A stretch of DNA of 64,000 nt from a virus. Taxonomy: Duplodnaviria > Caudoviricetes. The DNA lies in the IMG/VR virus record IMGVR_UViG_3300035520_000529, positions 32,001-96,000 of that record; one strand, written 5' to 3'. The notes under the pieces were generated by a model, which saw only the letters and a program-made list of their open reading frames with translations, did not search any database and was not told the origin of the DNA. Within the stretch, counting starts at the first letter, position 1. The number at the start of each line of letters is the position of its first letter. A program made the position numbers and the translations under genes. This document shows, piece after piece, positions 30,758 through 61,699 of the stretch.

Positions 30758-33700
30758 CTATAAGTTTTCTTTAAGTAAGGTTGTTAATTGGTCTATGAAT
30801 TGTGTAGGATTGTCAGTGGCTACTTTGTCTATATTTATAGTTAAAGTTTGTGCTACTTGTGTGGATGATTTTAACAAACCATTACTTAATGCAGACGAGT
30901 TTTTTAAATCCGTTAATGCTTCGTTAGTAACGTCTACAGAGTTCTTTAAGTTATTAACTGGTTCGGCAACAGTTGTGGTCAAACTAGTATTAAAATCTTC
31001 GGGTAGTCCTAAAATTTTATTAATGCTTTCTTGAGTTAGCTTAGTAAACTCATTAACGCTATTTGTAAGACCAGTAAGTTCATCAGTGTGAGTAGAGTTC
31101 ATTTGTTCTTCTAACGCACTGATTTGCTTATCCAAAGCTTCTTCTTGTTTGTCAATAGCATCTATTTCTTTATCTATAGCATCTTGTTGGTCTTTAAGAA
31201 CGTCTATTTGATCATCTAAGCCATCAATAATATCATTTATGCCGTCTATTTGGTCATCTAAAGCATCAATTTGGTCATCAAGAGCATCAATTTGCTTTTC
31301 AAGTTGAGCAATTTCTTCTTCTTGTAAAAGTTCATCGAGTTCTTGTTGAGCCTCCTTGATTTCATCTTTATCCGTTTCCCATTGCCAACCAAGTTCCTCA
31401 GTAAACACTCTAATAGTTTTTTGATTGAGTGCATTTTGTAATCTGATTTGTGCTTCTTGGATTTTTAAAGCACGTTCTTCCTCTTCATTCTTTTCTTCTA
31501 ATAAATCTATTTGGTCTTGGATAGCATCCTTTTGCTTTTCGATAGCTTCCTTTTGGTCTTCGATTAAGTCTATTTGGTCATTCCAATAGTCTTTCTGGTT
31601 TTCGATAGCATCAATTTCATCATCTAGGGCATCTTTTTGAGCATTCCAATATTCTTTAGTTTCTTCTAAAGCTTCTTTTTGACTTTCCAGCAGTTCCTTT
31701 TGAGCATCTAATAGACCTTTATAAACTTCTTCTTCATATTTACGATAGTCATCAAGATACTCTATCTTATTGGCATAATATTCTTGATTTAGTTCATTGA
31801 GGTACTTATAATAGTTCGCATCGTCTATAACGTTCATGTTGTGTAGATGTTCAAGGTATGCAAATTGTTCTTCAGCTTCTGCTTTGTAATAGTCAGTATC
31901 ACTGCCGTAATTACCCGTAGTAACCATAGCTAAATTATTTTTCAATAATTGTAAAGCTTGAATTTGAGCATAAATTTGTTCTGTAGCTTGTCCTCTACTA
32001 ACTATCGATTGTAAATTAACTAATTGCTCATCAATTTCTGCTTCAGCTAATTGCTTATAACTATTAGCATTTAGAGTTAGTTTACCAGTAGTCTTATCCA
32101 GTTGAATACATTGTGCATAACCACTATCTATTAACGATGTCATGGTACTTAATGATAAATAACCATTATCTTTAACTTCTTTAAAGGCATTACTCATGGT
32201 TGAAGCACTAGATTCAATGTTTTTAGTAGCTGATAAAATATCGCTAAAACTACCATTTGCAACTGAACCTACTCTACTAGACAAATCTTCCCACATAGAC
32301 AATATATACTCATTATCTTCTAATGATTGACTATTTTCGTCCAAAGCTTTAGATAATTCTTGTACTTGTTGACTAGCATAGGATTTATCAGCGGTTGAGA
32401 CTGTTGAGTCACTAAGTTTTTGCTTGTATTCATTAATAGTACTAATTAATTGTGTTTGCTCTTCTTTTAAAGAGTTTATTGCGTTTTGACTATCAACTTT
32501 ATAAGCTTCAATCTTAGCTTGTGCTAATTCCTCATACTTTTCAGTATTGATAGTTACTAAACCACTTTCTTTGTCTAGTTCAAGAATATCATCGAAATCG
32601 CTTTCTATTAGTTTAGTAATGTCCTCACTAGATAGACTTCCGCCTTTTCTAATGGTTTCCATCATCGTAGAGATTTCGCTAAATTCACTAGACAACGATG
32701 TTATCATATCTGAACCTATTTTAGTTGGACTGATTTCATCTTCAAATGATTTGTATTCTTGTTCAAGAGCATAAAGGTCAGTATTTATTTCATTAAGTGC
32801 TTCATCGTAGCCAAGGTTGTCAAACTTAACTTGTAACATTGCTTGAATAGTTGGGTTGCTTTGACTAGCAATATCTTTCAAATCACTTTCTTTAGCACGT
32901 TCCAATTCAGCCTTTTGAGTAAGTAGTGTTGCTTTTTGGTCATTGTACTTCGCTTGAATTAGTTTTTCTAAAGCTTCTCTATCTAAATTGTATACATCAG
33001 CGTTAGAATTATAATTTAAAGCTTCACTGTAACCATTGCTAATTAAAGATAGTATGGTTTCAGAAGTGAGTTTTCCTTGCTCTGACATTTCTGAATACGC
33101 ATCAGTTATTAAGTCTAAATTATCGGCTAGGGTTTCAAGCTCATCAGAACTACCACCCAATGCTTCTATTAATTCAGTAGTGGTTTGACTAATATTTTCA
33201 ATTGCACTAGATACATTGAATGTATGTTCAGACGTATCCTCACTAATATATCCAAATTCTTCTAAATATTCGATTAGATTTTCAAAAGATATTCCACAAT
33301 CATCGGCAACGCTTTGCATATATTCAAATATATTAGCGTAACTTTGAGCCTTGTTTTTGTAGTCACCAGTTTGGAAGTCTAAAACAATTTCCGATGCTGT
33401 AGCAGTGCCTATTAACTTATTAAGGTCAATCTTAGAGAAAATATTTTCAATCTTAGTCTTGATAACATCTTCGTTAAAGTTAGTTAAAAATCCATCAAAC
33501 CACGATTCTACTGTATCAGAAAGACCTTTAGTTTCAATACCTGTAATAGTATCTTTTAAGCTATTTAGTACATCTGACTTAGACATCAGCATATTATAAA
33601 GGCTTTCAATTTCTTCATAAGTAGATGTTGCCTTTTCAGTTTCACCATTGGCTATATAATCATTGTATTCACTAATTAAACTTTCAACACTACTTTTCCA

Positions 33701-35561
33701 TTCGGAAAGAGTTTTACCATCTATATCATCGGTTGAGTAGTCTACAAAACTATCCAAGAATGATGAAATTGTAGTTTCATAATCGTCATATGTGTCCGAG
33801 GAATATTTGGAAATTTTCTTCTGTATAGTAGTTAAAACTTTACTAACGTCTTCACCAGTTTGAGTACCATATGCCTTAACATCATCGTAGGCTTTTTGTA
33901 AGTCCTTTTTATATTGATATATAGAACCATCATTGGTAATACCATATGTATACGTCATGCTTAAATCATTAAGAGATTCTGCTTTAAACCCATTGTTTTT
34001 CAAGATATTACTAACTTCAGTAGAGAAATTATTTCTACGGAGTGAGATTGATGTGGAACTAAAAATTTTAGATGGGTCATACATCTTTTGGTAAGCAGTT
34101 TGAATATCCTTAGAATTTTCTTGCACAAACTTTGAACTTTCTAGAGCAGATATTTCTTGAAGTTTTTCCAATTGCTCATCAAGTTTACCATTAACTAAGT
34201 CTACACCATCTGCTTGTGTTCCGTAAGTATCTATTAAAGTTTGTTGTAATTCTAATAATTGCTTATTTGTATCGACTAAGTTTTCAGTGTCTCCACTATT
34301 AGCATAGTCTTCTTGTGCTTCTTTTAATTCTTTCAAGTTGGAAATATTTTCTTCAAGTTCGTCATTAAAAGTTTTAAGATTACTACTAGCTTCAATAGTT
34401 TCATCGCTGACCTTACCCAATCCCTTAGCCCAACTAACCAAAGTTGATACTATATGTGAAATAGCATATGAAAACAATCCGCCAACCACAGCATTTAATA
34501 TACCCGATACTACACTTAATGCAACTGTTCCTAATTTTGCAACAGCAAGTTTAGTTGCATAGCCTACTAAACCAACTTGTGCTTTATTTAAACTTTGTAG
34601 CTGTTCTGCTAATTTAGGATTTGATAATGCCAAAGTATTTAAAAATTCTTTCTGCGTATCATTTGCAACGTTAAGTTTCAAAGAATTTTCGTCAGCCAGT
34701 TTATTGTATTCACTTAATGCAGTTAACGTACCAGATAGCCCTTTGCCATAATTAGATGTCTGTAGAAATTCCATGTAAGTTTGGTTGGTTGCTTGAGCAT
34801 TTATTTTGGCTCTTGTTGCAAGATAATTTTCTAAGACAGTATTGGCGTTAGAAACCTCTTTTATGTACTTTGACATATCTCCATTGTTTTTAAGCGTATT
34901 ATTATAGTTAGTAATGGCTTGTTTATAATCCTTAGTATTAATAATCGATGCACTATCCATTGAACTTGACAAATTAGAACTAATAAATTTACTTGACGTT
35001 AAAGATTTACTTACAAGCGTGTCAAATTTTTTGAACAATGTACTTAGTGCGTTACCTATATTTTTGATAAAGGATGTGTTTAAAGTTTTGGTTATTATCT
35101 CCACAGAACTAGTAACATTTTTTAGAGAAACGTTATTTATGTTATTAAAGCCATTTTGAATTTGGCTAATCTTGTCGCTATAATTATTCAAAGGTGTTGA
35201 ACTTTTCTTAATGTTCTTAAAAAACTCATCAGTAAATCCTAAAGTACCAAATTTTTTATTCATTAGTCCATAAGCACTACCTATACTAGCAATTAGTACT
35301 GGAATTGCTCCAAATAAATCTACAAGTCGGTTAGCTTTGTTGATGAGTTGGTTTATGCCGTCTAAAAAGTCTTTTATAAACTCTGTATCGAATGTTGTAG
35401 TGGATATTTCTTGTGCAGATGCTTTAATAACATTTACTTTACCCTCAATGCTATCTACATATTTTTGGTTTTCTGTTTCAGCAGAACCCTCAGCATTGTT
35501 TGCAACTTCCAATGCTTTTTCAACTTGTGACCAGTTTGAGAGTAATGCTGATACTTGGTTT
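30758..35561 (-). CDS. Tape measure protein, exon 3
   Basis: Frame extends upstream of the called start to NQVSALLSNWSQVEKALEVANNAEGSA, which continues exon 2's ...AGKNRA. Long helical/coiled-coil protein. Confidence 0.88.
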
Positions 35562-35646
35562 CATTTATATTTAGCGAGTTCGTTAGGCTCACTTGATTTT
35601 AGTTAATAATAGTGAGAGTTGAAGCCTTACAACTCTCGCTTGTGTT

Positions 35647-38184
35647 TTAGTCTAAATATGTAACTTTCTTGCAACCATCGAAAGCATCTTTTACGATTGT
35701 TTTAACTGTTTTAGGTACTTCTATTTCTAGATTTGTGCATCCTTTAAAAGAACCGCTTTGTATTGATTGTACACTATTGGGAATTGTTAGTTTTTGTAAC
35801 GATTTACAATTATGAAATGCATATTTACCGATAAGTTTCACATTTTCTCCGATGGTGACTTTTTCTAGGTTAGTACAGTCTTCAAAAGTACTTATACCAA
35901 TGCGAGTTACTTTATTTGGAATTTCTATTTCCGTTAAACTTTTACAAGCCCTAAATGCTTCGCTGTATATTTCTTTAATGTTTTTTGGTAAATTTACTTT
36001 TTCTAAGCTAATGCAATCTTTAAAAGCATGTGCACTAATACGAGTTACAGAATTAGGAATATCTATTTTTTTTAAATTTTTACATTCCGCAAAACATCTG
36101 CTACTTATACTTTTAATATTTTTTGGTAAAATTATTTCTTCTAAATTACAACAACCACCAAAGGCAACATATCCAATACTTGTTACAGAATTAGGAATAT
36201 TTATTTCTTTTAAATTTTTACAACCATAAAACATTGCTCTGTTTATATTTTTAAGGTTTTGTGGCAGAGTTATTTTTTCTAAATTAGTACAGCCACTGAA
36301 CGTTACTCTGTTTATATTTTTTATGTTTTTTGGTAGAGTTATTTCTTTCAAATTAGTACAATTGCTAAAACTCCAATCACTAATGCAAGTTACAGTACTA
36401 GGAATCTCTATTTCTTTTAAACTTTCACAACCACTAAAGGCTTCACTGTGTATTGCTTTGATACTTTTTGGCAAATTTATTTTTTCTAAGTTACTACATC
36501 CACTGAAAGCTTTTTCTCCAATCGTGGTTACTGTATTAGGAATCTCTATTTTCTTTAAAGTTTCACAATAACAAAATGCTTCATTGCATATTTTTTTAAG
36601 GTTTTGTGGTAGAGTTATTTCTTCTAAATTAGTACAACCATAAAAAACACTTTCTTCAATACTGCTTACAGCATTAGGAATGTTTATTTTCTTTAAACTT
36701 TTACAGTTAGAAAAAGCTTTGGTATATATACTTTTAAGGTTCTGTGGTAAAGTAATTTCTTTTAAGTTACTACATCCACTAAAAACACTTTCTCCAATTG
36801 TGGTTACTGTGTTTGGAATTTCTACTTCCTCTAAAGTTTCACAATTTCTAAAAAGTCCATTGTTAAAGATTTTGATGTTTTTCGGTAAAGTGATTTCTTC
36901 TAAATTAGCACAACCATCAAAAGCATATTTGCCAACACTTTTAACACTATCTAGAAGTACCATCTTTATTATATTAATACAATTTCTAAAAGCATTATCT
37001 CCTATACACTTTATATCCTTTGAAACTATTATTCCCTCTAAATCTACTTTTTGAGGACACTTTATGATAGTACTGTCACATTTATTAATTAACGCTCCTT
37101 GCGAATCATAATACTTTTTATTGTTTTTATCCACAGATATTGTTTTTAAATTATCGCAATCATTGAAAGCATTTGAATCAATATGCATTACACTGCTAGG
37201 TATAGTTATTTTTTCTAGACTAGTACATTCTTTAAAATCGGATGCGTCGATAGAAACTACACCATGTGGAATAGTTAACTTGATTAGACTTGAACACCCA
37301 CTGAAACTAATCTTTTCAGTATTTACTAACGATTTAGGAAATATTATTTCTTTTATAGTGGAACAGTCTACAAAAGCGTTAGGGTGTATATTACATATAT
37401 TGTTTGGTATTGTTAATATACTTTCACACCCTTTATATTTGTAAAGAACATTGCCTAGCACAATTAAATCATTTGGATAATCTCTTATGAATGGTGTATT
37501 TTCAAAGGCATTATATCCAATAAAAATAACAGTATTTGGAATAATTATGTTGCTTAAACTTGTACAATTCTTAAAAGCATCTTCTTCAATAAATTTAACA
37601 CCATTAGGAATTGTTATGCTCTCTAAGTTTATACAATTGCTAAAAGCACCCTTATCGATGGAGACAACGCTACTTGGAATAGTTATGCTTTTTAAAGCTG
37701 TACATCTACCAAAAACACCATCTCCTATAGAGGTAACATTATTAGGAATACTTATATTAGTTAAATTTGTGCACTCGTGAAAAACATATTTACCTATAAA
37801 GGCAACACTATTAGGAATAGTTACACTAGTTAAATTTATGCAACCATCAAAAACATTATCTCCAATGGTGATAACTCCATTTGGAATAGTTACATTAGTT
37901 AAGTTTGTACAACCTTTAAAAGCACACTCTCCAATAGATGTAACACTATTAGGAATAGTTATATTGGTTAAGCATGTGTAATTTTTAAAAGCACTACTTC
38001 CAATAGACTTAACACCATTAGGAATAAATATACTACGAATTTTTTGATTTCTCCATGAGAAGTCAGAACCACAAAATGCATAATCTCCAATAGATGTAAC
38101 CCCATCGGGTATTACAACGTTGACTTCAGTTCCATTGTAATGTTCTAAAATACCATCTACAATTACAAAATCTTCACTTGCCAT
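35647..38184 (-). CDS. Intron-encoded BspA-type leucine-rich-repeat (LRR_5) protein, no signal peptide
   Basis: About 30 repeats of IPNxVxxIxxxAFxxCxxL. SD GAAAGG. Confidence 0.92.
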   Translation of the reverse strand: MASEDFVIVDGILEHYNGTEVNVVIPDGVTSIGDYAFCGSDFSWRNQKIRSIFIPNGVKSIGSSAFKNYTCLTNITIPNSVTSIGECAFKGCTNLTNVTIPNGVITIGDNVFDGCINLTSVTIPNSVAFIGKYVFHECTNLTNISIPNNVTSIGDGVFGRCTALKSITIPSSVVSIDKGAFSNCINLESITIPNGVKFIEEDAFKNCTSLSNIIIPNTVIFIGYNAFENTPFIRDYPNDLIVLGNVLYKYKGCESILTIPNNICNIHPNAFVDCSTIKEIIFPKSLVNTEKISFSGCSSLIKLTIPHGVVSIDASDFKECTSLEKITIPSSVMHIDSNAFNDCDNLKTISVDKNNKKYYDSQGALINKCDSTIIKCPQKVDLEGIIVSKDIKCIGDNAFRNCINIIKMVLLDSVKSVGKYAFDGCANLEEITLPKNIKIFNNGLFRNCETLEEVEIPNTVTTIGESVFSGCSNLKEITLPQNLKSIYTKAFSNCKSLKKINIPNAVSSIEESVFYGCTNLEEITLPQNLKKICNEAFCYCETLKKIEIPNTVTTIGEKAFSGCSNLEKINLPKSIKAIHSEAFSGCESLKEIEIPSTVTCISDWSFSNCTNLKEITLPKNIKNINRVTFSGCTNLEKITLPQNLKNINRAMFYGCKNLKEINIPNSVTSIGYVAFGGCCNLEEIILPKNIKSISSRCFAECKNLKKIDIPNSVTRISAHAFKDCISLEKVNLPKNIKEIYSEAFRACKSLTEIEIPNKVTRIGISTFEDCTNLEKVTIGENVKLIGKYAFHNCKSLQKLTIPNSVQSIQSGSFKGCTNLEIEVPKTVKTIVKDAFDGCKKVTYLD

Positions 38185-38220
38185 AACATCAAGACCTTTC
38201 TACAATAATTTGTTAGGTAT

Positions 38221-38249
38221 ATTATAGCAAATGTTTTGTGAAAAGTCAA
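38221..38249 (-). promoter_or_regulatory. Sigma-A promoter for the intronic LRR gene
   Basis: TTGACT (38249-38244), 17-nt spacer, TG-extended TATAAT (38226-38221). Confidence 0.82.
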
Positions 38250-38431
38250 TATAAATCGTTTGCTTTTATTCGATATTTTAACTAAAATCACTCATGCTTT
38301 CACATGAGATTAGACTATTTCTTCACCCTCACCATTATGTGTTAGGGGCATACCTTTTCCGTTTAAGAGGTTTTCACTCACTCACTTGAGCCGTACTCCT
38401 ATTGACACAATTCTGTCTATTGTGTCCTATG

Positions 38432-38612
38432 GGATAGCCGTTGAAGTTTCTCCGTGCCTTTCGGTTTAGGAGCTTACCTGCATGAACAACCATTGTTATC
38501 GGTTATTTAGGATTTAACCATGTAACCATCCTTACGTTGTTTCTACTTTCGTACCATCGTAGCGTGATTTCTCCGCTACTGTGGTGTAAGGCTTTAGGTA
38601 TTACCTGCAATT
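38432..38612. repeat. Direct repeat copy A (intron core), 180/181 identical to 41612-41792
   Basis: Direct sequence comparison. Single mismatch 38575 G vs 41755 A. Confidence 0.95.
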
Positions 38613-38660
38613 AGATATGTATGTTATGCACATTTCTGTACATAAGGGTAAATTAAGTTT

Positions 38661-39434
38661 GCCCTATTCTTACCTGCAATTTTTTCAAGTAATCCAGCTT
38701 GATTTATGTCGGATAAATCATCCCAAACGTTAGCAATTTCTCGCATAATTTCATAGGTTGATTTATATGTGTTACTATCTTTCATGATGTCTATACCCGA
38801 CAAAGCTTTAATATCTTCTCTCATTTTGGAAGTGGTTTCAGCCATACCCTCAGTATCTTCGCCCATTTCCTCAACTTCTACCTTGCTAGAGCGTAACCTC
38901 ATGGATAGCGTTTTTAATGCGTTACCCATACTGTTGGCATCTTGGGTTATTTCAGTACCACCAGTTATCATTGCTATAGATTCGTTTAAACTATTTCCTG
39001 CTACCGCTAAAGCACTAGCACTTTGTGTTAAACCCTCGCCAATATCAGAGGAACTTAACGCAAACTTATTACCTACATCGTTGAACGCATCCACGATACT
39101 AATGCTATCCTCAGCTTCAACGTTAAAAGCTTTCATAGCAGTTACAAGGTCACTAGTAGCAGTATCAATGTCAATGAAGCCTACATTAGAATACATAGTT
39201 GCAATATTACCTAATGTTGTAGCTTCGTCTAGAGTGTAACCTAGTCTACTAAATGACGATACTGCATCAATAACGTCTGTAACAGTACTAGCTAACTCTT
39301 TAGCACTACTAGTAGCAGTAGTTAAAAACTTATCATAAGTATCACTGGTTTCGGAAGTAACACGTTTTAAGGTTACCATCGAAGTATCGACTTCTTCAAC
39401 AGTAGTTAACATTTCTTTGAAATAACTTATTACT
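38661..39434 (-). CDS. Tape measure protein, exon 2 (conserved core domain)
   Basis: RVISYFKEMLTTVEEVD...FSRLGY...GNALKTLSMRL...IAGKNRA is typical TMP core. 774 nt. Confidence 0.9.
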
Positions 39435-39612
39435 CTGATATATAAACTTTATAATTATTTATAAACACTCAAAAAATTATAAGATTATTTCCTTATTCAA
39501 CGTGTCCGCTTTGGATTGTATTTCTACAATCTACTCACGCTTGTATGACACTCCAAAGGCGTAAATTCGGCGTTATCAACACCTACATATTAGCATAATC
39601 TTGATATTGACT
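39435..39612 (-). ncRNA. Putative TnpB omegaRNA scaffold / right end
   Basis: Region downstream of tnpB shares blocks with 59569-59760 (ccttattcaacgtgtccgcttt; tgacactccaaaggc). Confidence 0.6.
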
Positions 39613-40761
39613 CTATGCTAATTGATAGTTTGCTAAATTAATACTAGCGTTCTTATCTCTATCCAAAGTGAAACCACACACATCACAGTGGTATGTTCTA
39701 TCCTTGAGTTTCAAATCTTTCTTGACGTTTCCACATTGAGAACACCTTTTGCTTGATGGATAGAACCTATCAGCTTGAATAAATCTAATTCCGTACTTTT
39801 CGGACTTGTACTTCATAAGGCTAATAAACTGATAGAACCCCTGTTCTGCTATGGCTTTTGAAAGATGTTTGTTTTTCAACATACCTGTGACGTTTAAGTC
39901 TTCCATAACTATTCTCGATGGCTTGGTTTTCGCAATCGCATTAGTTACTTGGTGGTTGTGATTTAGACGGATGTTCTTTAACTTTTCGTGGATAAGCTTG
40001 ATTATTCGCTCTAGTTTCAAGATGTTTTGAGTCTTAACATACCTCTTGCCTTGGCGGTTCTTCTCATATTTCCTCGAAACTTGACGTTGCAATCTTCTAA
40101 GTCTCTTTTTCAACTTTCTAATCTTTTGAGTTTTGTTGATATTTCTAAAAGGACTATCGAAATTACTAACAGTCGCGAGTTCCTTGATGCCTAAGTCAAT
40201 GCCTACAGATAAGTTCTCATCCAGTTCTAAAGGTTGGTTTTCACACTCAATACCTAAAGACAAGTACCAGTATCGTCCATTGAATTTTATTCTTGGATTG
40301 CATACTGATATTTTATCTTTCTTGTAATTGCCTTGAGGTAGCCTATTTTCGTCATTCATCTTGACTACACCAATCTTTTCAAGCTGTATTTGACTATCCG
40401 TAACTTTAAATTTAGTTGGTAAGTGATAGAAAGATATAGTGCTTCTCTTCTTGGACTTATGTCTAGGATACTTGGCAACTTTCTTAAAGAACTTACTTCT
40501 AGCATCGTCAAAGTCTTTAATGGCTTGTTGAGGTATCTCCGAGGAGACTTCTTTAAGCCATGGGTACTTGTTAGAGTTCCTAATCTTAGTGAAGTGCTTT
40601 CGCATAGTACCAACGCTTACAGATTTTCCGTATAGTTTGTAATAGGTTTCGAAAAATCCTAACGCCCAGTTGTACGCAAATCGCATAACACCTGCTGATT
40701 TCCACATTAAAGTCTCTTGCTCTTTCGTTGGATAGAGTTTGACTTTTATGCCTTTAATCAT
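39613..40761 (-). CDS. tnpB: TnpB RNA-guided endonuclease
   Basis: GIDLG, VMEDL, FYPSSKRCSQCG...CDVCG, DRDKNA. RuvC D-E-D triad intact. Confidence 0.95.
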   Translation of the reverse strand: MIKGIKVKLYPTKEQETLMWKSAGVMRFAYNWALGFFETYYKLYGKSVSVGTMRKHFTKIRNSNKYPWLKEVSSEIPQQAIKDFDDARSKFFKKVAKYPRHKSKKRSTISFYHLPTKFKVTDSQIQLEKIGVVKMNDENRLPQGNYKKDKISVCNPRIKFNGRYWYLSLGIECENQPLELDENLSVGIDLGIKELATVSNFDSPFRNINKTQKIRKLKKRLRRLQRQVSRKYEKNRQGKRYVKTQNILKLERIIKLIHEKLKNIRLNHNHQVTNAIAKTKPSRIVMEDLNVTGMLKNKHLSKAIAEQGFYQFISLMKYKSEKYGIRFIQADRFYPSSKRCSQCGNVKKDLKLKDRTYHCDVCGFTLDRDKNASINLANYQLA

Positions 40762-41365
40762 CTTCAGACAACTCCTTAATTATCTTTTTGGTTTTATTGG
40801 CTCTTTTCCCTTGTAATCTACAACTGAACACAGTTATTATTTGGATTAAATCTTCGACAATTTCTTCTTCGTCACTTCTTTCGGTATTGTCGATTATTTC
40901 AATTTCAACACCCTTAGAAATACAAATATTTTCTATTAGTTCGTATCCAAACCTAACCAATCTATCCTTATATAGAATTACGATTTTAGAAACTTCCTCA
41001 TTTAAAACCATACTCATAAGCTTGTTCAAGCCTTTATTTTGATAATTAATTCCGCTACCTATATCCGAGATTATTGAAAACTGATAGCCTTTAGCATACA
41101 TATACATCTTGACGTTTTCAATTTGTCTATCTAAAGCTTCTTTTTGCTTTTGACTAGACACTCTACAGTAGCCTATTGTCTGCTTAGATTTTACCTTTTC
41201 ACCATTATAAATTTTAAGTTGTTCATCGGTATAATAGCGATAACCTGTCACCTCATCCACATATGCAGGTTTTAGTTTACCACTTTTATCCCAATTTCTT
41301 AAAGTTTGTTCTGTACGATTTATTAATTTAGCAAATTGTCCTATGGAATATTTTCTAATTTCCAT
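40754..41365 (-). CDS. tnpA: IS607 serine transposase
   Basis: MerR-like HTH (TLRNWD), GYCRVSS, DIGSG, YKDRLVRFG. Confidence 0.95.
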   Translation of the reverse strand: MEIRKYSIGQFAKLINRTEQTLRNWDKSGKLKPAYVDEVTGYRYYTDEQLKIYNGEKVKSKQTIGYCRVSSQKQKEALDRQIENVKMYMYAKGYQFSIISDIGSGINYQNKGLNKLMSMVLNEEVSKIVILYKDRLVRFGYELIENICISKGVEIEIIDNTERSDEEEIVEDLIQIITVFSCRLQGKRANKTKKIIKELSEDD

Positions 41366-41386
41366 GTTTTATCACCTCTTGTACTA

Positions 41387-41415
41387 ATTATAACATAAAC
41401 ATTATAATATGTCAA
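41387..41415 (-). promoter_or_regulatory. tnpA-tnpB promoter
   Basis: TTGACA, 17-nt spacer, TG-extended TATAAT. Confidence 0.75.
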
Positions 41416-41455
41416 GAGTTATTTTGAGTATTTATAAATAATTATAAAGTTTATA

Positions 41456-41884
41456 CCTTTTGCTATAGAACGCAACTTCTATAACGCTATTTCGCTCACG
41501 CTAATAGCCACTCTCTTTCGAGACGTGCAAAGACTATTTCTTCACCCTCACCATTACGTGTTAGGGGCAAACCGCTTCCACTACCATACGCTTGTAGTGT
41601 ACTCCATCTCTGGATAGCCGTTGAAGTTTCTCCGTGCCTTTCGGTTTAGGAGCTTACCTGCATGAACAACCATTGTTATCGGTTATTTAGGATTTAACCA
41701 TGTAACCATCCTTACGTTGTTTCTACTTTCGTACCATCGTAGCGTGATTTCTCCACTACTGTGGTGTAAGGCTTTAGGTATTACCTGCAATTCAATTTGT
41801 GTGCTACGCTCGTTTCCGAACGTACCCAGCTGAAAACTCTATAATTTTATATTTTTATTATAGTTAATTATAAAGTTTTCGTTA
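41456..41884 (-). ncRNA. Group I ribozyme core of intron 1
   Basis: P2 tacgttcg-GAAA-cgagcgta, P3 caaattg/cggtttg, TTCAACGGCTAT, AAGAAATAGTCT, P9/P9.1/P9.2 hairpins. Confidence 0.9.
41612..41792. repeat. Direct repeat copy B (intron core)
   Basis: 180/181 identical to 38432-38612. Confidence 0.95.
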
Positions 41885-44800
41885 CTGTAAATCATAGTGC
41901 CTAAAACTGCTTTTAAACCTATCTTTGAGAATAAGTTATCTAATTCTTGACCAACACTTTTACCAGTTTTGCCAAGTTTAGTAACTTCTGTTTTAATGCT
42001 TTCAAACCTACTTTGTAAACCTAGTAGATTTTCTTTAGTCCTATCTATGCTATTTGCTTCACTAATAATACTATCTAACTGAGACTTAAATGAATAAGTC
42101 GAACTCATTGCTTTTCCGTTTTTTGCTTGAAATTGTGTAACATCAGCTATAAGTTTAGAGTATGCACTATCTATTTTATTTTGAGAAGTTGTAAAACTTA
42201 CGCCACTTAACGCACTAGCAGATTCACTCTTTAATTTTTCAAAGTTTTCAGTACAGATTATTATATTATTGGATAAGCTTTGTAGTTGTGCACTTTGAGA
42301 TTCAAAAGTATTTTCTCCATTTTTGATACCATTTAAAATAGTTGTAAATTCTACTGTATTTTTGTTTAGTTCTTGTTGCTCTTTATTTAAAGCTTCAATA
42401 TAAGTTTTTCCAACGTAATTTTTATCACTGATGGTGGTGGTATCTTTAATAGTAGCATTTTTAGTATTCTCATTAATGCTTAATTTGTTAATTAAATTTG
42501 TAATAGTATTGTTTGTTACTGTTGCACTATTAAGTTGTGATTCATATTTTTGTAAGGTTTTAAGTTGTGAATTTATTGACTCAAATTCTTTATTTAGTTC
42601 TTCATATCTAGTAATAGCTTTTTTGGGATTGGACTTGTCTATGTTATTTAAATTAGTTTGAATTTCTTTTAGATTATTTAATAATTGAAACTTTTCTAAC
42701 GCACTAGATTTTGTGCCTAATTTGGTAGTAATTTGATTATTTAATTCACTAATTTTATCCTCAATTTTAGGTATAGCATTACTTTTAGTGCTTAATTCAG
42801 TAACACTTTTTGATACATTATCTATATTAGATTTAAAGATAGCTAGATTTTCTGTATTAATATTAGTAGGATCGTTTACTAAAGTAGCATACGTTTCTTT
42901 TAAAGATTCAAGAGAAGTTTTTATCGTATTGATATTATTAGTTAATTCAGTACCTAAACCATTTCCACCCAAATTGTTAAATTTTTCTTCAATTGTGGTA
43001 AGATTGCCACTTACCTTGTCTAATTCTTTTTTATATTTTTCAAGTTGGGTGATGTTTTGATTAATAGTATTATCGGTTATCTTGCCATAGTTTCTAGTAT
43101 AATTTTCATATCCTTTTTGATAAGCCTTTTCTAACTTAGCAATGGTTTCATCACTAAAACCATACGTTTCAGCTATGTTAGTAGTCTTTTGACTATCATT
43201 CTGTAGTTTTGCTTGAATGTATTCTAGATATTTTTTACCAGTTTCATCGAGTAAAGCTGTTTGTTCTCTAATAATAGTATTTTCGGAATTTAATTCATTT
43301 TCAACAATCTTACTTGTAGCGGATGATTGAAGTTCTAATTTTGTTTTATTTGCAAGAGCAGTGGTGATTTTTGTTATAATGTTTAGTTGCTCTTTTAACA
43401 CATTATTATTATAATTATTATTATTATAACTATTAAGTGTTTTAGTGTTTTGATTAGCGTTGCTATCAATAGCATTGCCATAATTCCTTATAGAGGGTAT
43501 GTTATAATATTGTTGATACATTGAATTTAATTTGGCAATAGTTTTTTCGCTAAGTCCATACTTGTCAGCTATATTAGAACCATTTTCGCCATTCATTAAA
43601 GTTTTAATATATTCTAAGTATATTTTACCATTTTTATTGAGCAAAGCAGTTTGTTCATCAATGACCTTATTTTCAGAAGCTAACCTTTCCTCAAATGTTT
43701 TGTCTGTGGTAGTCGATTGAAGAAGTTGCTTATTTCTATTAGAATAAGCTTTAGTGATTTCTTTAATATAACCTAATTGTGATTTAAGGTTCTCGCTATT
43801 GTTAAGTGATTCTTTACTTTGCTTTGATTGAGCGATTTGTGTTGTTTTGATATTAACAGTTAAGCCTACTTTTTTTAAAGCTTCTTCAATTGCAGTTTTA
43901 AGGTTTTCAATAGCACCTGTGGCTTCAAACGCACCTATTTTTATAGTTAAAGGATTGCTTTTATCGTTTAACTTGCCAACAACATTCTCGTTAATCTCTT
44001 TCTTAGTTAGAGGTTTGATTTGAACTGGTATCTTTAAATCAGAAACCTTTTTTTTAACTTCGTTAATTGCTTTAGTAGCACTAATAGACTTTAGATTAAG
44101 AGTAATTTTATTGTTTAGTTTTTCGCTTATAAGAGTTTTTAATTCTTTAATGTTTTGGCTATTAACTTTCAAGTTTACTTCTAATGGTACATTAGTGCTT
44201 TTTAATTTTTCACGGAGTTCCTTTAAGGCTGAACCATACGTAAACTTGCTAACTCCAACTGAAACATTAACCTTATTTAGTTTAGTTTTTAATTTATCGT
44301 TTATGCTTGATATACTATTAGATTTATTATCATATCCAAAACTTAAATTTACCTTTTGAGAATCAACGTATTTTTGTACTTGATTTAATGTATTTTGTAG
44401 CGTTTCTTCATTAAACCCATTAAACTTTAGTTGAAAATCTAACTTGTTAAGTTCATCAACAATTTTAGAATAATCTATTGTAGCATTTATATTAGAACCA
44501 TTTAAATTAATATTAATCGGATTGCTTTGTATGTTTTCTCTAATTCTAGTTAGAGCTTCAGTGATTTGGGTCTCTATGTTTTGAACGTTAGTAGTAAGTT
44601 CGATTTTTGGAACAGCATTCTTAATAGTTTCAAGTTGTTTATTAAATGTTTCTGATGAGGAAAAATTATTTTCCAAAGATATTTTTATTTTTGTATTTTC
44701 TTGAATAGATTTTAGTGCTTCATTTAATTCTTTAATTTGGTTTATAACAGTGTCATTTTCTATAGTAGTTTCACTTGTGGTTGTTTTGCCAACTTCCTCA

Positions 44801-45930
44801 TTAACTTCATTAATCTTTTTTTTTACATTTTTAATGTCATCGGAAATATTAAGTTTTAAAGTGTATCCCTTAGTATTTTTGCTCCATTTACTTAAGGTTT
44901 CATCCGCTTCCTTAATTACTGTTAAAACATCTTTTAAATCACTAGCATCTACTTCTATCTTATACTTTAGATTACCCTCTTTAATTCTTTTTAAACTTTC
45001 ACTATATGCTATGTCTGGGTTAAAATTATTAGTTAAAGAGTTAGATACAGTATCATAGTCTAATTTTACCATTTTAGTTTGTAATTCAGAAACCATTTTG
45101 GTATATTGAGACAATATTTCCTTTTTAAAGTCAGTAAAACTATTACCATACTGATTTTTTGCTTTATTCAAAAAATCATTTATCTCTGCAGAATTGTCAA
45201 ACATAGTACCCATCCACGTTTTAAATCCGCTAAAATTAGATTTAGTACCATTTTGGTATTGGTATTTTTCGATATTTTGTAATATTAGAGCTAACGCATT
45301 GGCTCGGTCTAATATCTCTTCCTGTGAGACGCTTTCCGCATTTTTGACTTCTTCTCCTGCTTTTAGAATTTTCTCACTTATACCATCACCATACAATTGG
45401 ATAGCTTTTTCAACACTAGTTTTATCTTGACTAAACTCCTCAACTAGTGCTGATGAACTTAATTTAGTCCTATCTGAAAGAGTTTCTAGAGAGGTAATTA
45501 AACCATTTATCGAAGAACTGTCGAGACTTAATTCCTTGAGCTTTGTTTTATTCAAATCACTTACATCAAATAATTTTGAGAATTTTTGTTCCTCTTTTTG
45601 AGTAAAATACATATATTCAAAATTACTTGCTTGTTCTAATAGTTTTAACGCTTCTATCAATTCCAATATTTTTTTAGTAGAAGCATCAGTATCAATTTCT
45701 GGAATTTTCAAACTATCTAAATCATCGTTTACCTTATTTTTTAATTTGTCTATTACACTTTTGAATTTAGCAGTAGCGTTTGCAAGTTCATCAGCGTTCA
45801 TATTAGGCTTAAATGTAATATCATATTTTCTTTTTGTTATGTTTATGGCATTTTCAACAATTTGATTCAAGTCTTCTTGATTAAGACCAGCACCAAATTT
45901 AATCATTGCTCCATTAGTTGATTCTGACAT
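41885..45930 (-). CDS. Tape measure protein, exon 1 (spliced product ~3207 aa)
   Basis: SD GAGGTG. Long helical protein. Exons of 4046+774+4804 nt = 9624 nt, in frame. Confidence 0.85.
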
Positions 45931-59562: not shown

Positions 59563-59762
59563 TAAAACCCGTTACTGAAAACTTATAAAAAGTTATAACA
59601 ACTCTTGATTAAGTTACAAAATTTATAACTTTTAGGTTTCATTCCTTATTCAACGTGTCCGCTTTGAGTTTTGTTTCCAAAACCTACTCACACTTGTGTG
59701 ACACTCCAAAGGCTTAAATTCCCGACTAACGTATCGGTACATTCGTGTAACACTTGTGTTAG

Positions 59763-60929
59763 CTATGCTACACGATAGTCTGTACAGTTTTTCAAATTCA
59801 CACTAGCTTGGAAGTCTCTATCTATGGTGTTTCCACAGACTTCACAATGATAAATTCTATCTTTAAGCTTTAGGTCTTTCTTGATGTTTCCACAACAAGA
59901 ACATATTTTACTTGATGGATAGAACCTATCAGCAACCCTTAATTCTATGTGCTTCTCTTGGCACTTATACTCTAACTGTCTATGGAACTCATAGAAGCAT
60001 TGTTCTTGGACTGCCTTAGCTAGGTGCTTATTCTTCAGCATACCCTTAACGTTCAAATCTTCCAACACTATGAACTTTGGTTCTCGGTTCACAATCTCGG
60101 TAGTGGTTTGATTCAAGTAGTTATGTCGAATGTTCGTTAATCGGTGACTTAATTTTAAAAGTTGTCTTTGACTTTTTACAACGTTACGTGTTTTACAGTA
60201 ACGTTCTCCTTTCTTATTCATTAGGTATTTTCTAGATGCCTTGCGTTGTAACCTACGCTTTTTCTTGTTTAACTTACGTACTTTCATACTTTTGTTGATG
60301 TTCTTATAAGTGTTAGCGTCTGAGCAGATAGCCAAATCTTTGACACCTAGGTCTATGCCGATTCCATCATTTTTTGGTGTAACGTAACGCTCATCACACT
60401 CAATGCCTACAGATAACCACCAGTTAAGACCGTCGAAAGTAACTCTAGGATTAGAGTACTTTGCATTTTCGGGGATTCTGTTAGGCTCTGCGAGTCGAAC
60501 CCAGTTGAAAAGTTGCTTGTTAACTTTTCTACTAGTGGTCAACTTTTCGAGTTTGACTTTACCATCTTTAAATTTAATCTTAGCGGTATCTACATAGAAA
60601 CTAGGCTTTGAATGGTGTCTGCTCTTAAACTTTGGATGCTTAGCTAAACCTTTAAAGAACTTCTCAAACGCTCCACAACAGTCAATGATAGCCTGTTTAG
60701 TAACGTTGTTGCTGTAGTCATTAATCCATTGATACTCATCTTGAGTTTTGAGTTGTGTGAAAAGTTTTCTTAAATAATAATGACTGATAAACTTTCCACC
60801 GTTCTTGTAATTTTTATTTTGGTAATCTAATGCCCAATTGTACGCAAATCTCGCAACACTTGCACTTTGAAAGAGTTTAGTCTGTTGCTTATTATTAGGA
60901 CAAAGTTGAACTTTAATAGTCTTAATCAT
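59763..60929 (-). CDS. tnpB: TnpB RNA-guided endonuclease
   Basis: GIDLG, VLEDL, FYPSSKICSCCG, DRDFQA. Confidence 0.95.
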   Translation of the reverse strand: MIKTIKVQLCPNNKQQTKLFQSASVARFAYNWALDYQNKNYKNGGKFISHYYLRKLFTQLKTQDEYQWINDYSNNVTKQAIIDCCGAFEKFFKGLAKHPKFKSRHHSKPSFYVDTAKIKFKDGKVKLEKLTTSRKVNKQLFNWVRLAEPNRIPENAKYSNPRVTFDGLNWWLSVGIECDERYVTPKNDGIGIDLGVKDLAICSDANTYKNINKSMKVRKLNKKKRRLQRKASRKYLMNKKGERYCKTRNVVKSQRQLLKLSHRLTNIRHNYLNQTTTEIVNREPKFIVLEDLNVKGMLKNKHLAKAVQEQCFYEFHRQLEYKCQEKHIELRVADRFYPSSKICSCCGNIKKDLKLKDRIYHCEVCGNTIDRDFQASVNLKNCTDYRVA

Positions 60930-61527
60930 CTTCCGTTAACTCCTTTATCATCTTCTTAGCTTTATTTGCTCGTTTACCTTGCAATTTACAGCTAAAAACG
61001 GTCACAATTTGAATTAAGTCCTCAACTAGTTCTTCTTGTTCGGTTTTTTCGGTATTATCTATCACTTCGATTTCACAGTCATACAGTTCTGCAATATATT
61101 CAATTAATTCAAATCCAAAACGTGTAAGTCTATCCTTGTACAGAACAACAACCTTTGATATACTGTGGTTTATTATACATTTTATTAAATCTTGTAATCC
61201 TTTTCTTTTGTAGTTAATACCTGAACCTATATCGAATATTATTTCAAATGGTTTACCCTGTGCAATAAGATAGGTTTGCATATTTTCTATTTGTCTTTGC
61301 AAATCATCTTTTTGTTTAATAGAACTAACTCTACAATAACCTACAGTCTTTTCAACTTTTTTGACTGGTTTGTTTAACAATTGGTTTAAATCATCTTCGG
61401 AGTAGTAACGATAACCATTAGGACTTTTATGATGTGGTTTTAATTTCCCACTTCTATCCCAATTTCTCAACGTTTGTGCAGATACTCCTAATATTTTCGT
61501 CATTTCATGTATAGTGTAATATTTCAC
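60922..61527 (-). CDS. tnpA: IS607 serine transposase
   Basis: HTH, GYCRVSS, DIGSG, YKDRLTRFG. Confidence 0.95.
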   Translation of the reverse strand: MKYYTIHEMTKILGVSAQTLRNWDRSGKLKPHHKSPNGYRYYSEDDLNQLLNKPVKKVEKTVGYCRVSSIKQKDDLQRQIENMQTYLIAQGKPFEIIFDIGSGINYKRKGLQDLIKCIINHSISKVVVLYKDRLTRFGFELIEYIAELYDCEIEVIDNTEKTEQEELVEDLIQIVTVFSCKLQGKRANKAKKMIKELTEDD

Positions 61528-61699
61528 TCAAATCACCTCTATACATAGAATAACATAATTATTTATAAAAGTCAATATACATTTATAAGTTTTTATAAGT
61601 TTTCTCTAACTGTTAAAAGCCTCCTATCCTTAGTTACATCCACCTTGGACTTTTGCAAGTATATAGTATTAGCTCAGCGACATACTCTCTTCGCCTACA

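What the first reader, a model, noticed from the sequence alone, without database searches (positions are those of the whole stretch)
39435..41884. IS607 IStron in a phage structural gene; TnpB guide would target the intronless TMP allele
Seen: group I core followed by tnpA and tnpB with intact catalytic residues. The outer 5' end carries IS607-like AAACTTTATAATTA motifs inside the P1 extension hairpin. Both junctions share AG rather than the GG usual for IS607. Known: TnpB omegaRNA takes its guide from the right flank, and splicing competes with omegaRNA formation in IStrons. Inference: the guide is AGTAATAAGTTATTTCAAAG (TMP exon 2). TnpB would then cut empty TMP sites, including those of co-infecting relatives, acting as an RNA-guided homing or competition nuclease.
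Basis: partly seen in the sequence, partly recalled or inferred. Interest (0 to 1): 0.72.

Follow-up and report, generated by a model that had tools for sequence, protein, structure and literature searches.

The report
IS607 IStron in phage tape-measure gene
A self-splicing intron fused to a jumping gene, carrying its own RNA-guided DNA cutter, sits in frame inside the giant tail tape-measure gene of an uncultured gut phage; it is a clean, apparently active new member of an already described family (IStrons), with an unusual ACAG target site.

Summary
Window 41884-39435 (minus strand) is a 2450-nt group B (IS607-type) IStron. It has a group I ribozyme, an intact serine-recombinase tnpA, an intact tnpB and a RAGATH-18 guide-RNA scaffold.

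Three other copies (73-95% identical) lie in other genes: a DnaE-like polymerase, another site of a homologous tape-measure gene, and a small Ruminococcus-MAG gene. All begin right after ACAG. The three whose right end is held end in TCAG. Removing the element restores long open frames, and two uninterrupted tape-measure homologues align without a gap across the joint.

A hairpin loop upstream of RAGATH-18 is complementary to positions -6 to -2 of the right end in five sequence classes.

The 34-nt inner repeat, the left-end motif in the P1 hairpin, the shifted U-G pair and even an AG/CAG variant are published features (Tourasse 2014). Guide-from-flank homing and the splicing/guide-RNA conflict were shown for CboIStron. 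So this is a new member of a known kind; only the ACAG site is uncharacterised. Splicing, cutting and phage competition are untested.

The scan separately noted the sibling elements in this same genome.

The parts
41885..45930 (-). Tape-measure gene exon 1 (1348 codons + 2 nt); its last four bases ACAG (41888-41885) are the conserved target/TAM-like motif
   Evidence: ORF. An in-frame joint with exon 2 gives ...GTMIY|RVISYFKEM. ACAG precedes all four family copies.
39435..41884 (-). Whole IStron (2450 nt): both the transposon and the intron
   Evidence: Alignments to L014 (95%), L016 (76%) and L035 (73%) start at or a few bases before 41884. Those to L014 and L016 stop exactly at 39435; L035 is cut by its contig end. 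The flanks are unrelated.
41832..41880 (-). P1-extension hairpin holding the outer left-end (TnpA-site-like) AT-rich motif
   Evidence: Fold (-17.5 kcal/mol, z -4.2). 21 nt are 90% complementary to the right end (pair I3).
41827..41830 (-). Internal guide sequence GCUG, pairing with exon CAG plus the first intron base U (P1)
   Evidence: the pairing is invariant in four copies. The guide sequence changes with the target motif in sibling elements (GCCC for GGG in IStron C, GCCU for AGG in phage c-st).
41509..41879 (-). Group I ribozyme core (P1-P9)
   Evidence: Rfam RF00028, 43.6 bits, full-length model. 94% identical to the 53.2-bit core of the neighbouring intron. About 93% conserved even in the 76%-identical copy L016 (my estimate from the alignment).
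41422..41455 (-). 5' arm of the 34-nt AU-rich 'IR stem' that loops out the IS genes
   Evidence: pair I1: 34 nt, 97% complementary to 39441-39474, 88% A+T. This is the layout described for group B IStrons (PMC4227781).
40754..41365 (-). tnpA, IS607-type serine recombinase (203 aa)
   Evidence: Pfam Resolvase and MerR. PDB IS607-family TnpA catalytic domains, E 1e-30 to 1e-33. Intact and 83-98% identical in the three other copies.
39613..40761 (-). tnpB, RNA-guided nuclease (382 aa); overlaps tnpA by 8 nt
   Evidence: Pfam. E 3.9e-65 to PDB 8iaz_A, which I take to be ISFba1 IS607 TnpB: the ISFba1 paper names 8IAZ. RuvC D189/E287/D369 and CxxC...CxxC are invariant.
39569..39583 (-). Hairpin GGUG-UUGAUAA-CGCC; its loop is the upstream half of the pseudoknot
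   Evidence: loop UGAUA is complementary to UAUCA at positions -6 to -2 of the right end. L016 has UGAUG with CAUCA (a compensatory change).
39489..39559 (-). RAGATH-18 motif, the core of the guide-RNA scaffold
   Evidence: Rfam RF03064, 68.4 bits, E 1.5e-11. Present after tnpB in all ten IMG/VR relatives.
39441..39474 (-). 3' arm of the IR stem, the right-end TnpA-site-like motif. It is also a local palindromic hairpin, the last stem-loop of the scaffold
   Evidence: I1, I3. Consensus fold of four copies (12-bp hairpin).
39436..39440 (-). Downstream half of the pseudoknot (UAUCA). G39435 is the last base of the element and the intron's terminal G
   Evidence: The flanks of the copies diverge right after this G.
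39415..39434 (-). Predicted 20-nt guide and target (AGTAATAAGTTATTTCAAAG), the first bases of exon 2
   Evidence: Inferred from the scaffold's end, with 1-2 nt uncertainty at the 5' end. The first 16 bases occur once in the 108-kb record.
38661..39434 (-). Tape-measure gene exon 2 (258 codons; PhageMin_Tail domain)
   Evidence: Pfam PF10145, E 5.6e-24. Colinear with uninterrupted homologues L024 and L016 across both joints.

Best explanation
This is an autonomous group B (IS607-type) IStron, and it was probably mobile recently.

As DNA, the whole 2450-nt unit is moved by its serine recombinase TnpA. TnpA would exchange strands at an AG dinucleotide: the AG of the ACAG target on the left and the terminal AG of ...TCAG on the right. 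It inserts without target duplication.

As RNA, read through from the tape-measure gene, the unit folds as a group I intron. Exon CAG plus the first intron U pair with GCUG (P1). A 34-bp AU-rich stem loops out tnpA and tnpB and brings the 3' end to the core. Splicing at ACAG|AGUAAU then restores one reading frame.

Alternatively, the 3' part of the transcript folds as the TnpB guide RNA. Its parts are the pseudoknot hairpin, RAGATH-18 and a terminal hairpin made from the same right-end repeat. Its 3' extension is the first ~16-20 nt of exon 2.

TnpB loaded with this RNA should cut any copy of the gene that has ACAG directly joined to AGTAATAAG..., meaning a site emptied by TnpA or a never-invaded allele. 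Repair from a filled copy reinstalls the element. The filled locus would be spared because TCAG, not ACAG, precedes the target there.

Shown here: the anatomy, the boundaries, mobility as a unit, frame restoration, intact catalytic motifs and the pseudoknot covariation. Inferred from studied relatives: splicing, excision, guide usage, TAM and homing.
For: Boundaries and mobility as a unit:
- Four copies lie in four different sites, all preceded by ACAG. The three with a right end end in TCAG.
- tnpA and tnpB are intact in all four, 70-98% identical.

Frame restoration:
- Removing the element gives open stretches of at least 1154 and 1327 aa in L014 and L016.
- It gives a 3207-aa three-exon tape-measure frame here.
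- Uninterrupted homologues align without a gap across the joint.

Ribozyme:
-.
- P1 is CAGU/GCUG in all copies.
- The internal guide sequence covaries with the target motif in IStron C and in phage c-st.

Guide RNA:
- RAGATH-18 lies 54 nt from the right end, against 50 nt in the ISFba1 reRNA (PMC11061315).
- The pseudoknot is complementary in five sequence classes and always ends at position -2.

Function in relatives:
- CboIStron TnpA, TnpB, homing and the splicing/guide conflict (10.1101/2023.11.20.567912).
- PMC13521648.
- Group B IStron layout and the AG/CAG variant CsISt1 (PMC4227781).
Against:
- No empty allele of this tape-measure site was found in IMG/VR or in JGI metagenome contigs. 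A natural target for TnpB is therefore not documented.
- The ribozyme scores below Rfam's gathering threshold (43.6 against 50 bits).
- The inner 5' repeat matches the right end better (34 nt, 97%) than the outer left-end motif does (21 nt, 90%). TnpA action on the inner pair cannot be excluded.
- The inferred TAM (ACAG) differs from every IS607 TAM in the papers read here (TGGG, AGGAG, GAGGG).
- The self/non-self difference would rest on position -4 alone (A against T).
Confidence: 0.8

Rival explanations
1. Nested elements. An ordinary IS607 (39441-41455, bounded by its own 34-nt inverted repeats) landed in the P9 region of a pre-existing phage group I intron. Only the inner segment is mobile, so the guide RNA would not be tied to the exon joint by transposition.
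For: The inner repeats are longer and more alike (34 nt, 97%) than the outer left end against the right end (21 nt, 90%). The ribozyme core is far better conserved than the IS part: my estimate is about 93% against about 75% in L016. The same core also occurs with other cargo (intron 2, L029-L033), so core and cargo do get recombined.
Against: All four copies carry intron and IS together with identical outer boundaries, at four unrelated sites. No inner-only copy turned up. L015 holds only a tnpB-and-right-end remnant with no left end. The right end lies 6 nt from the 3' splice site, so even an inner element shares its right boundary and guide with the intron. Long AU-rich stems around the ORFs are a defining trait of group B IStrons (PMC4227781).
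Confidence: 0.06
2. Spliced but otherwise retired. The element persists as a harmless intron, while TnpB and its RNA no longer cut DNA (decayed, or turned to another use such as regulation).
For: Many IStrons in the literature have lost tnpA and are immobile. This phage also holds a tnpB-only IStron. No empty target allele was found.
Against: Both ORFs are full length with all catalytic residues in four diverged copies. A 95%-identical copy sits in a different gene of another phage, which points to recent movement. Pseudoknot and scaffold are maintained by compensatory change.
Confidence: 0.1
3. The guide is not the exon-2 flank. The guide RNA ends at or just after RAGATH-18 (39489), and the next ~20 nt inside the element (AUAAUCUUAUAAUU...) are the guide.
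For: Rfam's model ends at 39489, 54 nt before the element's end.
Against: In the solved ISFba1 RNA, RAGATH-18 spans -51 to -122 from the guide. The intervening 50-71 nt here form a conserved hairpin. The pseudoknot partner lies at -6 to -2 of the right end in five classes. An internal guide would make the element target itself.
Confidence: 0.03

Closest known systems
CboIStron of Clostridium botulinum BKT015925 (Zedaveinyte et al., bioRxiv 10.1101/2023.11.20.567912), with later mutational mapping in PMC13521648
   Same: Group I intron, serine TnpA, TnpB and guide RNA in one unit. Splice sites coincide with the transposon ends. The guide is taken from the right flank. A pseudoknot uses the last bases of the right end. 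The replicon also carries a tnpA-less IStron and plain IS607 copies, as this phage does.
   Different: Target/TAM is TGGG and the right end is ...TCGG there; here they are ACAG and ...TCAG. That paper discriminates self from non-self at position -3; here it would be -4. No direct TnpB comparison was made. Against the related phage c-st IStron, TnpB is 53% identical. Nothing has been tested experimentally here.
Group B IStrons CbISt3 and CbISt4 of Clostridium phages c-st and D-1873, and BcISt1 (Tourasse et al. 2014, PMC4227781)
   Same: IS607-type IStrons inside phage genomes. The intron starts UAAC..., with the U-G pair one base inside the intron. The left-end motif lies in the P1 stem. A long AU-rich IR stem surrounds the ORFs. 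TnpB is 53% identical.
   Different: They insert after GG-ending sites and end in CGG. Their host genes differ.
CsISt1 of Clostridium sporogenes (PMC4227781)
   Same: The one described group B IStron that sits after an AG site and ends in CAG.
   Different: CsISt1 has ORF B only. Its ORF B is distant (about 30% to ISLhe9, as listed in the paper). I did not compare sequences directly.
ISFba1-type IS607 TnpB with RAGATH-18-derived reRNA (Ren et al. 2024, PMC11061315; PDB 8IAZ)
   Same: TnpB E 3.9e-65 to 8iaz_A. RAGATH-18 core with an extension of about 50 nt and pseudoknots before the guide.
   Different: TAM is AGGAG or GAGGG there, with no intron. By my residue mapping from the alignment, the TAM-contacting residues are not kept: K80 and K83 are E and Q here, and N121/N122 fall in a gap. 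This is a lead, not a test.
Homing-endonuclease intron of phage PhiPA3 (gp210; PMC11620839)
   Same: A group I intron in an essential phage gene whose nuclease cuts intron-less relatives during co-infection. This is the precedent for the competition idea.
   Different: It uses a protein-guided nuclease with no transposase. The only sequence link is a 58-nt match to the ribozyme core.

Membership tests
Group B (IS607-type) IStron | Group I (IA2-like) ribozyme at the 5' end of the element | tested here: met
   RF00028 full-length match, 43.6 bits (below the 50-bit gathering score). 94% identical to a 53.2-bit sibling core. Conserved across copies.
Group B (IS607-type) IStron | IS genes placed after P9.2 and enclosed by a long AU-rich inverted-repeat stem (15-34 bp, over 80% AU) | tested here: met
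   34 nt, 97% complementary, 88% A+T, at 41422-41455 and 39441-39474. Criterion taken from PMC4227781.
Group B (IS607-type) IStron | ORF A is an IS607 serine recombinase; ORF B is TnpB | tested here: met
Group B (IS607-type) IStron | Inserted after a G-ending site (usually GG) and ends in CGG; no target duplication; the U-G pair lies one base inside the intron | tested here: met
   ACAG|U... and ...UCAG|, the AG/CAG variant that the paper records for CsISt1.
Group B (IS607-type) IStron | Removing the element at its ends restores the host reading frame | tested here: met
Group B (IS607-type) IStron | Self-splicing of the RNA | not testable with these tools
Group B (IS607-type) IStron | Copies at different loci share the same ends (mobility as a unit) | tested here: met
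   Four sites.
IS607 TnpB guided by a RAGATH-18-derived RNA | RAGATH-18 motif just downstream of tnpB | tested here: met
   68.4 bits. Present in all ten IMG/VR relatives.
IS607 TnpB guided by a RAGATH-18-derived RNA | Scaffold runs on for about 50 nt to the transposon end and is closed by a pseudoknot; the guide is the flanking DNA | tested here: met
   54 nt. Loop/tail complementarity holds in five classes: UGAUA/UAUCA, UGAUG/CAUCA, CGUUA/UAACG, CGCUAC/GUAGCG and CGUUG/CAACG. The guide itself is inferred.
IS607 TnpB guided by a RAGATH-18-derived RNA | G-rich TAM (TGGG, AGGAG or GAGGG) | tested here: not met
   The motif next to the left end is ACAG at four of four sites. The real TAM is unmeasured.
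Homing-endonuclease group I intron | Intron-encoded LAGLIDADG, GIY-YIG, HNH or His-Cys box nuclease | tested here: not met
   The only ORFs of 150 aa or more on the coding strand are tnpA and tnpB.

The most novel reading that the evidence does not exclude
In this phage the TnpB-guide RNA is more than transposon upkeep. During mixed infection or prophage induction it cuts the intron-less tape-measure allele of close relatives. It thereby converts or excludes them, as an RNA-guided counterpart of intron homing-endonuclease competition. The ACAG-specific TnpA, TnpB and ribozyme guide sequence would then represent a co-ordinated three-way retargeting away from the GG sites of all characterised IS607 systems.
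Probability: 0.25. Interest if true: 0.7.

Novelty: new member of a known kind. Interest (0 to 1): 0.4.

Why it matters
The element adds little conceptually. IStrons, including IS607-type ones in phages, and RNA-guided homing by their TnpB are published. It is useful as material in four ways.

1. It belongs to a small family of four intact copies with precisely mapped ends. Their target motif (ACAG) differs from every IS607 TAM in the papers read here. Recombinase core, nuclease TAM and ribozyme guide sequence must all have shifted together, which gives a natural test of how the three constraints co-evolve.

2. The pseudoknot covariation gives a simple sequence rule for locating IS607 right ends, which are otherwise hard to call.

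3. The host gene is an essential virion gene of a 108-kb phage record. That record also carries a tnpB-only IStron, a plain IS607 and a sibling intron with non-nuclease cargo. It is a compact system for asking whether RNA-guided nucleases act in phage-phage competition.

4. Related IStrons occupy two different positions about 65 codons apart in homologous tape-measure genes, so this gene is a repeated landing site.

Tried and rejected
- I first assumed a classical 5' splice site after U41884. No in-frame 3' site ending in G exists for that choice. It was rejected in favour of ACAG|U, which fits the frame, the copies' boundaries and the published group B rule.
- I first read the plain IS607 at 59.6-61.6 kb as ending in ...TTTTCAG. 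Comparison with about 20 relatives shows it ends ...CAGTAACGG, so it is GG type.
- Empty-site search: a codon-degenerate pattern for the ligated joint in IMG/VR gave 0 hits. The exact 26-nt exon-1 end in JGI metagenome contigs gave 0 hits.
- A right-end pattern search in IMG/VR returned only the two contigs already in hand.
- megablast of the region against GenBank phages gave only a 58-nt ribozyme match to PhiPA3.
- The site homologous to the IStron A insertion in the L016 phage's tape-measure gene is uninterrupted. It reads TTTAG|AATTATTGCC..., which by my count matches 10 of 16 guide bases and lacks ACAG, so it is not a target.
- The minimum-free-energy fold of the 3' region alone pairs the guide with the scaffold. 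It was not used; the four-copy consensus and the pseudoknot analysis replaced it.
- L015 (tnpB 88% identical, right end ...TCGG) is a left-end-less remnant. It says nothing about left boundaries.
Full report
**Setting.** The window is bases 32001-96000 of a 108-kb IMG/VR virus record. The region of the finding lies in a minus-strand block of virion genes: terminase, tail genes, and an integrase next to a tRNA at 62-63 kb. All coordinates below are window coordinates, and the element reads on the minus strand.

**What is there.**
- The 1363-aa ORF 45930-41839 runs into the element. A 262-aa ORF with a PhageMin_Tail domain (39412-38624) follows it.
- A group I ribozyme lies in between. The Rfam model matches 41879-41509 over its full length at 43.6 bits when the stretch is searched alone. 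It was missed in wider searches.
- This core is 94% identical over 213 nt to the core of a second intron at 38670-38291, which passes Rfam's threshold at 53.2 bits.
- tnpA (41365-40754) has a MerR-type HTH and a resolvase catalytic domain. It matches IS607-family TnpA structures at E 1e-30 to 1e-33.
- tnpB (40761-39613) has all three TnpB Pfam domains and scores E 3.9e-65 against PDB 8iaz_A, which I take to be ISFba1 TnpB.
- RAGATH-18 lies at 39559-39489 with 68.4 bits.
- In an alignment of eight TnpB proteins, RuvC D189, E287 and D369 and four zinc-finger cysteines are invariant. TnpA keeps its GYCRVSS serine motif.

**Boundaries.**
- A TnpB-based scan of IMG/VR and of GTDB genomes found three further copies: L014 (95% identical DNA), L016 (76%) and L035 (73%, in a Ruminococcus MAG contig that is cut before the right end).
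- Each alignment to the IStron begins at or a few bases before 41884. Those with a right end stop exactly at 39435. The flanks are unrelated.
- The left flanks read TTACAG, ATACAG, TAACAG and AGACAG. The right ends read ATCAG.
- Deleting the element at these points gives open frames of at least 1154 aa (L014, which looks like a DnaE-type polymerase from its residues; not tested against Pfam) and 1327 aa (L016).
- In this phage the deletion gives ...LGTMIY|RVISYFKEM... in frame.
- Two uninterrupted tape-measure homologues (L024, and the L016 phage's own gene) align across this joint without a gap.
- The L016 IStron lies in the homologous tape-measure gene about 65 codons upstream, where this phage's gene is uninterrupted. 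These are therefore independent insertions.
- All four copies keep full-length tnpA (83-98% identical) and tnpB (70-94%).
- The unit that moves is therefore intron plus IS, not the inner 39441-41455 segment.

**Intron side.**
- Exon CAG and the first intron base U pair with GCUG (41830-41827). An AT-rich 15-bp hairpin carrying the left-end motif lies between them. The pairing is the same in all four copies.
- In the sibling IStron C the exon ends GGG and the guide sequence is GCCC. In phage c-st the exon ends AGG and the guide sequence is GCCU. The ribozyme's guide sequence thus tracks the transposon's target motif.
- The U-G pair sits one base inside the intron, as Tourasse et al. describe for group B IStrons.
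- The 34-nt, 97%-complementary, 88% A+T repeats at 41455-41422 and 39474-39441 correspond to their 'IR stem' that loops out the ORFs.

**Guide-RNA side.**
- RAGATH-18 ends 54 nt before the element's end. In the solved ISFba1 RNA it spans -51 to -122 from the guide.
- The intervening stretch forms a conserved 12-bp hairpin from the palindromic right-end repeat.
- Just upstream of RAGATH-18 a 4-bp hairpin carries a 7-8 nt loop. That loop is complementary to positions -6 to -2 of the right end.
- The complementary pairs are UGAUA/UAUCA (IStron A, L014), UGAUG/CAUCA (L016), CGUUA/UAACG (the plain IS607 here and about 18 relatives), CGCUAC/GUAGCG (IStron C) and CGUUG/CAACG (phage c-st).
- In each case one more G follows, and then the flanks diverge.
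- This matches the PK-1/PK-2 pseudoknot mapped for CboIStron and places the scaffold's end at the transposon's end.
- The guide is therefore the exon-2 flank, AGTAATAAGTTATTTC..., give or take one or two bases at its start. Those 16 bases occur once in the record.
- The first base of the crossover dinucleotide (A here, G in GG-type elements) pairs with U or C of the loop. The AG/GG difference is thus mirrored in the RNA.

**Mechanism.** By analogy with CboIStron:
- TnpA excises and inserts the unit at AG.
- Read-through RNA either splices (long IR stem formed) or matures into the guide RNA (local hairpin and pseudoknot formed).
- TnpB with this RNA cuts ACAG-flanked empty sites, and repair from filled copies restores the element.
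- The filled site has TCAG in place of ACAG. All four left flanks have A at -4, and all three known right ends have T.
- None of these steps was observed here.

**Comparison with what is known.**
- Tourasse et al. 2014 catalogued IS607-type IStrons, including ones in Clostridium phages c-st and D-1873. They described the triple repeat layout and recorded CsISt1 as sitting after AG and ending in CAG.
- The TnpB here is 53% identical to that of phage c-st and 55% to Bacillus phage copies.
- The TAMs reported in the papers read here are TGGG, AGGAG and GAGGG. ACAG is not among them.
- The ISFba1 residues that read the TAM are not conserved here, by my mapping. This is only a lead.
- I file the element as a new member of a known kind.

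**Surroundings.**
- The same record holds a plain GG-type IS607 (61619-59569).
- It holds a tnpB-only IStron in a YonO-like RNA polymerase gene beyond the window (TGGG|...GCGG|).
- It holds a second tape-measure intron (38660-35562) with a near-identical core and an 845-aa LRR gene as cargo.
- With both introns removed the tape-measure gene is one 3207-aa frame.
- Earlier notes of this scan give the same coordinates. I had derived them independently before reading those notes.

**Limits.**
- No expression or activity data could be had.
- No empty allele was found.
- The family is small: four copies.

Noticed in passing
window 35562-38660 (-): Second group I intron in the same tape-measure gene. 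Its core is 94% identical to the IStron's core. Its cargo is an 845-aa BspA-type LRR gene (38184-35647) behind a TTGACT-17-TATAAT promoter-like site. A perfect 13-bp stem (UGAUUUUAGUUAA / UUAACUAAAAUCA) encloses the cargo. The best-fitting 5' splice site is GGGC|AAAC, with a C-A instead of a U-G pair in P1. Exon 3 starts with the same AAAC, which gives a textbook P10.
   Followed up: partly
window 30758-45930 (-): Three ORFs form one 3207-aa tape-measure frame (exons 45930-41885, 39434-38661 and 35561-30758). It is colinear with uninterrupted homologues L024 and L016 across both joints.
   Followed up: yes
window 59569-61619 (-): Plain IS607 (tnpA 201 aa, tnpB 388 aa, RAGATH-18 at 59712-59642) lying between a DUF3037 gene and an unannotated 336-aa ORF. 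The left flank is ...AGGAGG| and the right end is ...CAGTAACGG|, so it is GG type, matching the AGGAG TAM of ISFba1-like TnpBs.
   Followed up: partly
L011 3762-5778 (-), i.e. G000:C1 about 99762-101778, beyond the window: tnpB-only IStron (group I core, 392-aa TnpB, RAGATH-18 at 78 bits) splitting a gene with an RdRP-fold (YonO-like) polymerase domain. Junctions are GTTGGG|UAAC... and ...GUAGCGG|GAGAAU, in frame. It has no tnpA of its own, so it would need one in trans, perhaps the GG-type one of the plain IS607.
   Followed up: partly
L016 2373-4811 and 4991-5038: A 76%-identical IStron lies in the homologous tape-measure gene of another phage, about 65 codons upstream of this phage's insertion site. 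Each phage is uninterrupted at the other's site.
   Followed up: yes
L029-L033 (IMG/VR contigs): The same ribozyme core (an exact 25-mer shared) occurs in five more phage contigs without IS607. In two of them about 900 nt are inserted inside the core, so this ribozyme lineage carries varied cargo.
   Followed up: partly
L015 3424-4830: An intergenic remnant with a tnpB 88% identical to this one, only about 80 nt of the tnpA 3' end, no intron, and a right end reading ...TATCGG instead of ...TATCAG. Its pseudoknot loop is unchanged and would pair through a G-U.
   Followed up: partly
L012 2929-2996 and 4446-4519 (+), before the window: Two pistol ribozymes (72.7 and 60.9 bits) at the start of the record.
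   Followed up: no
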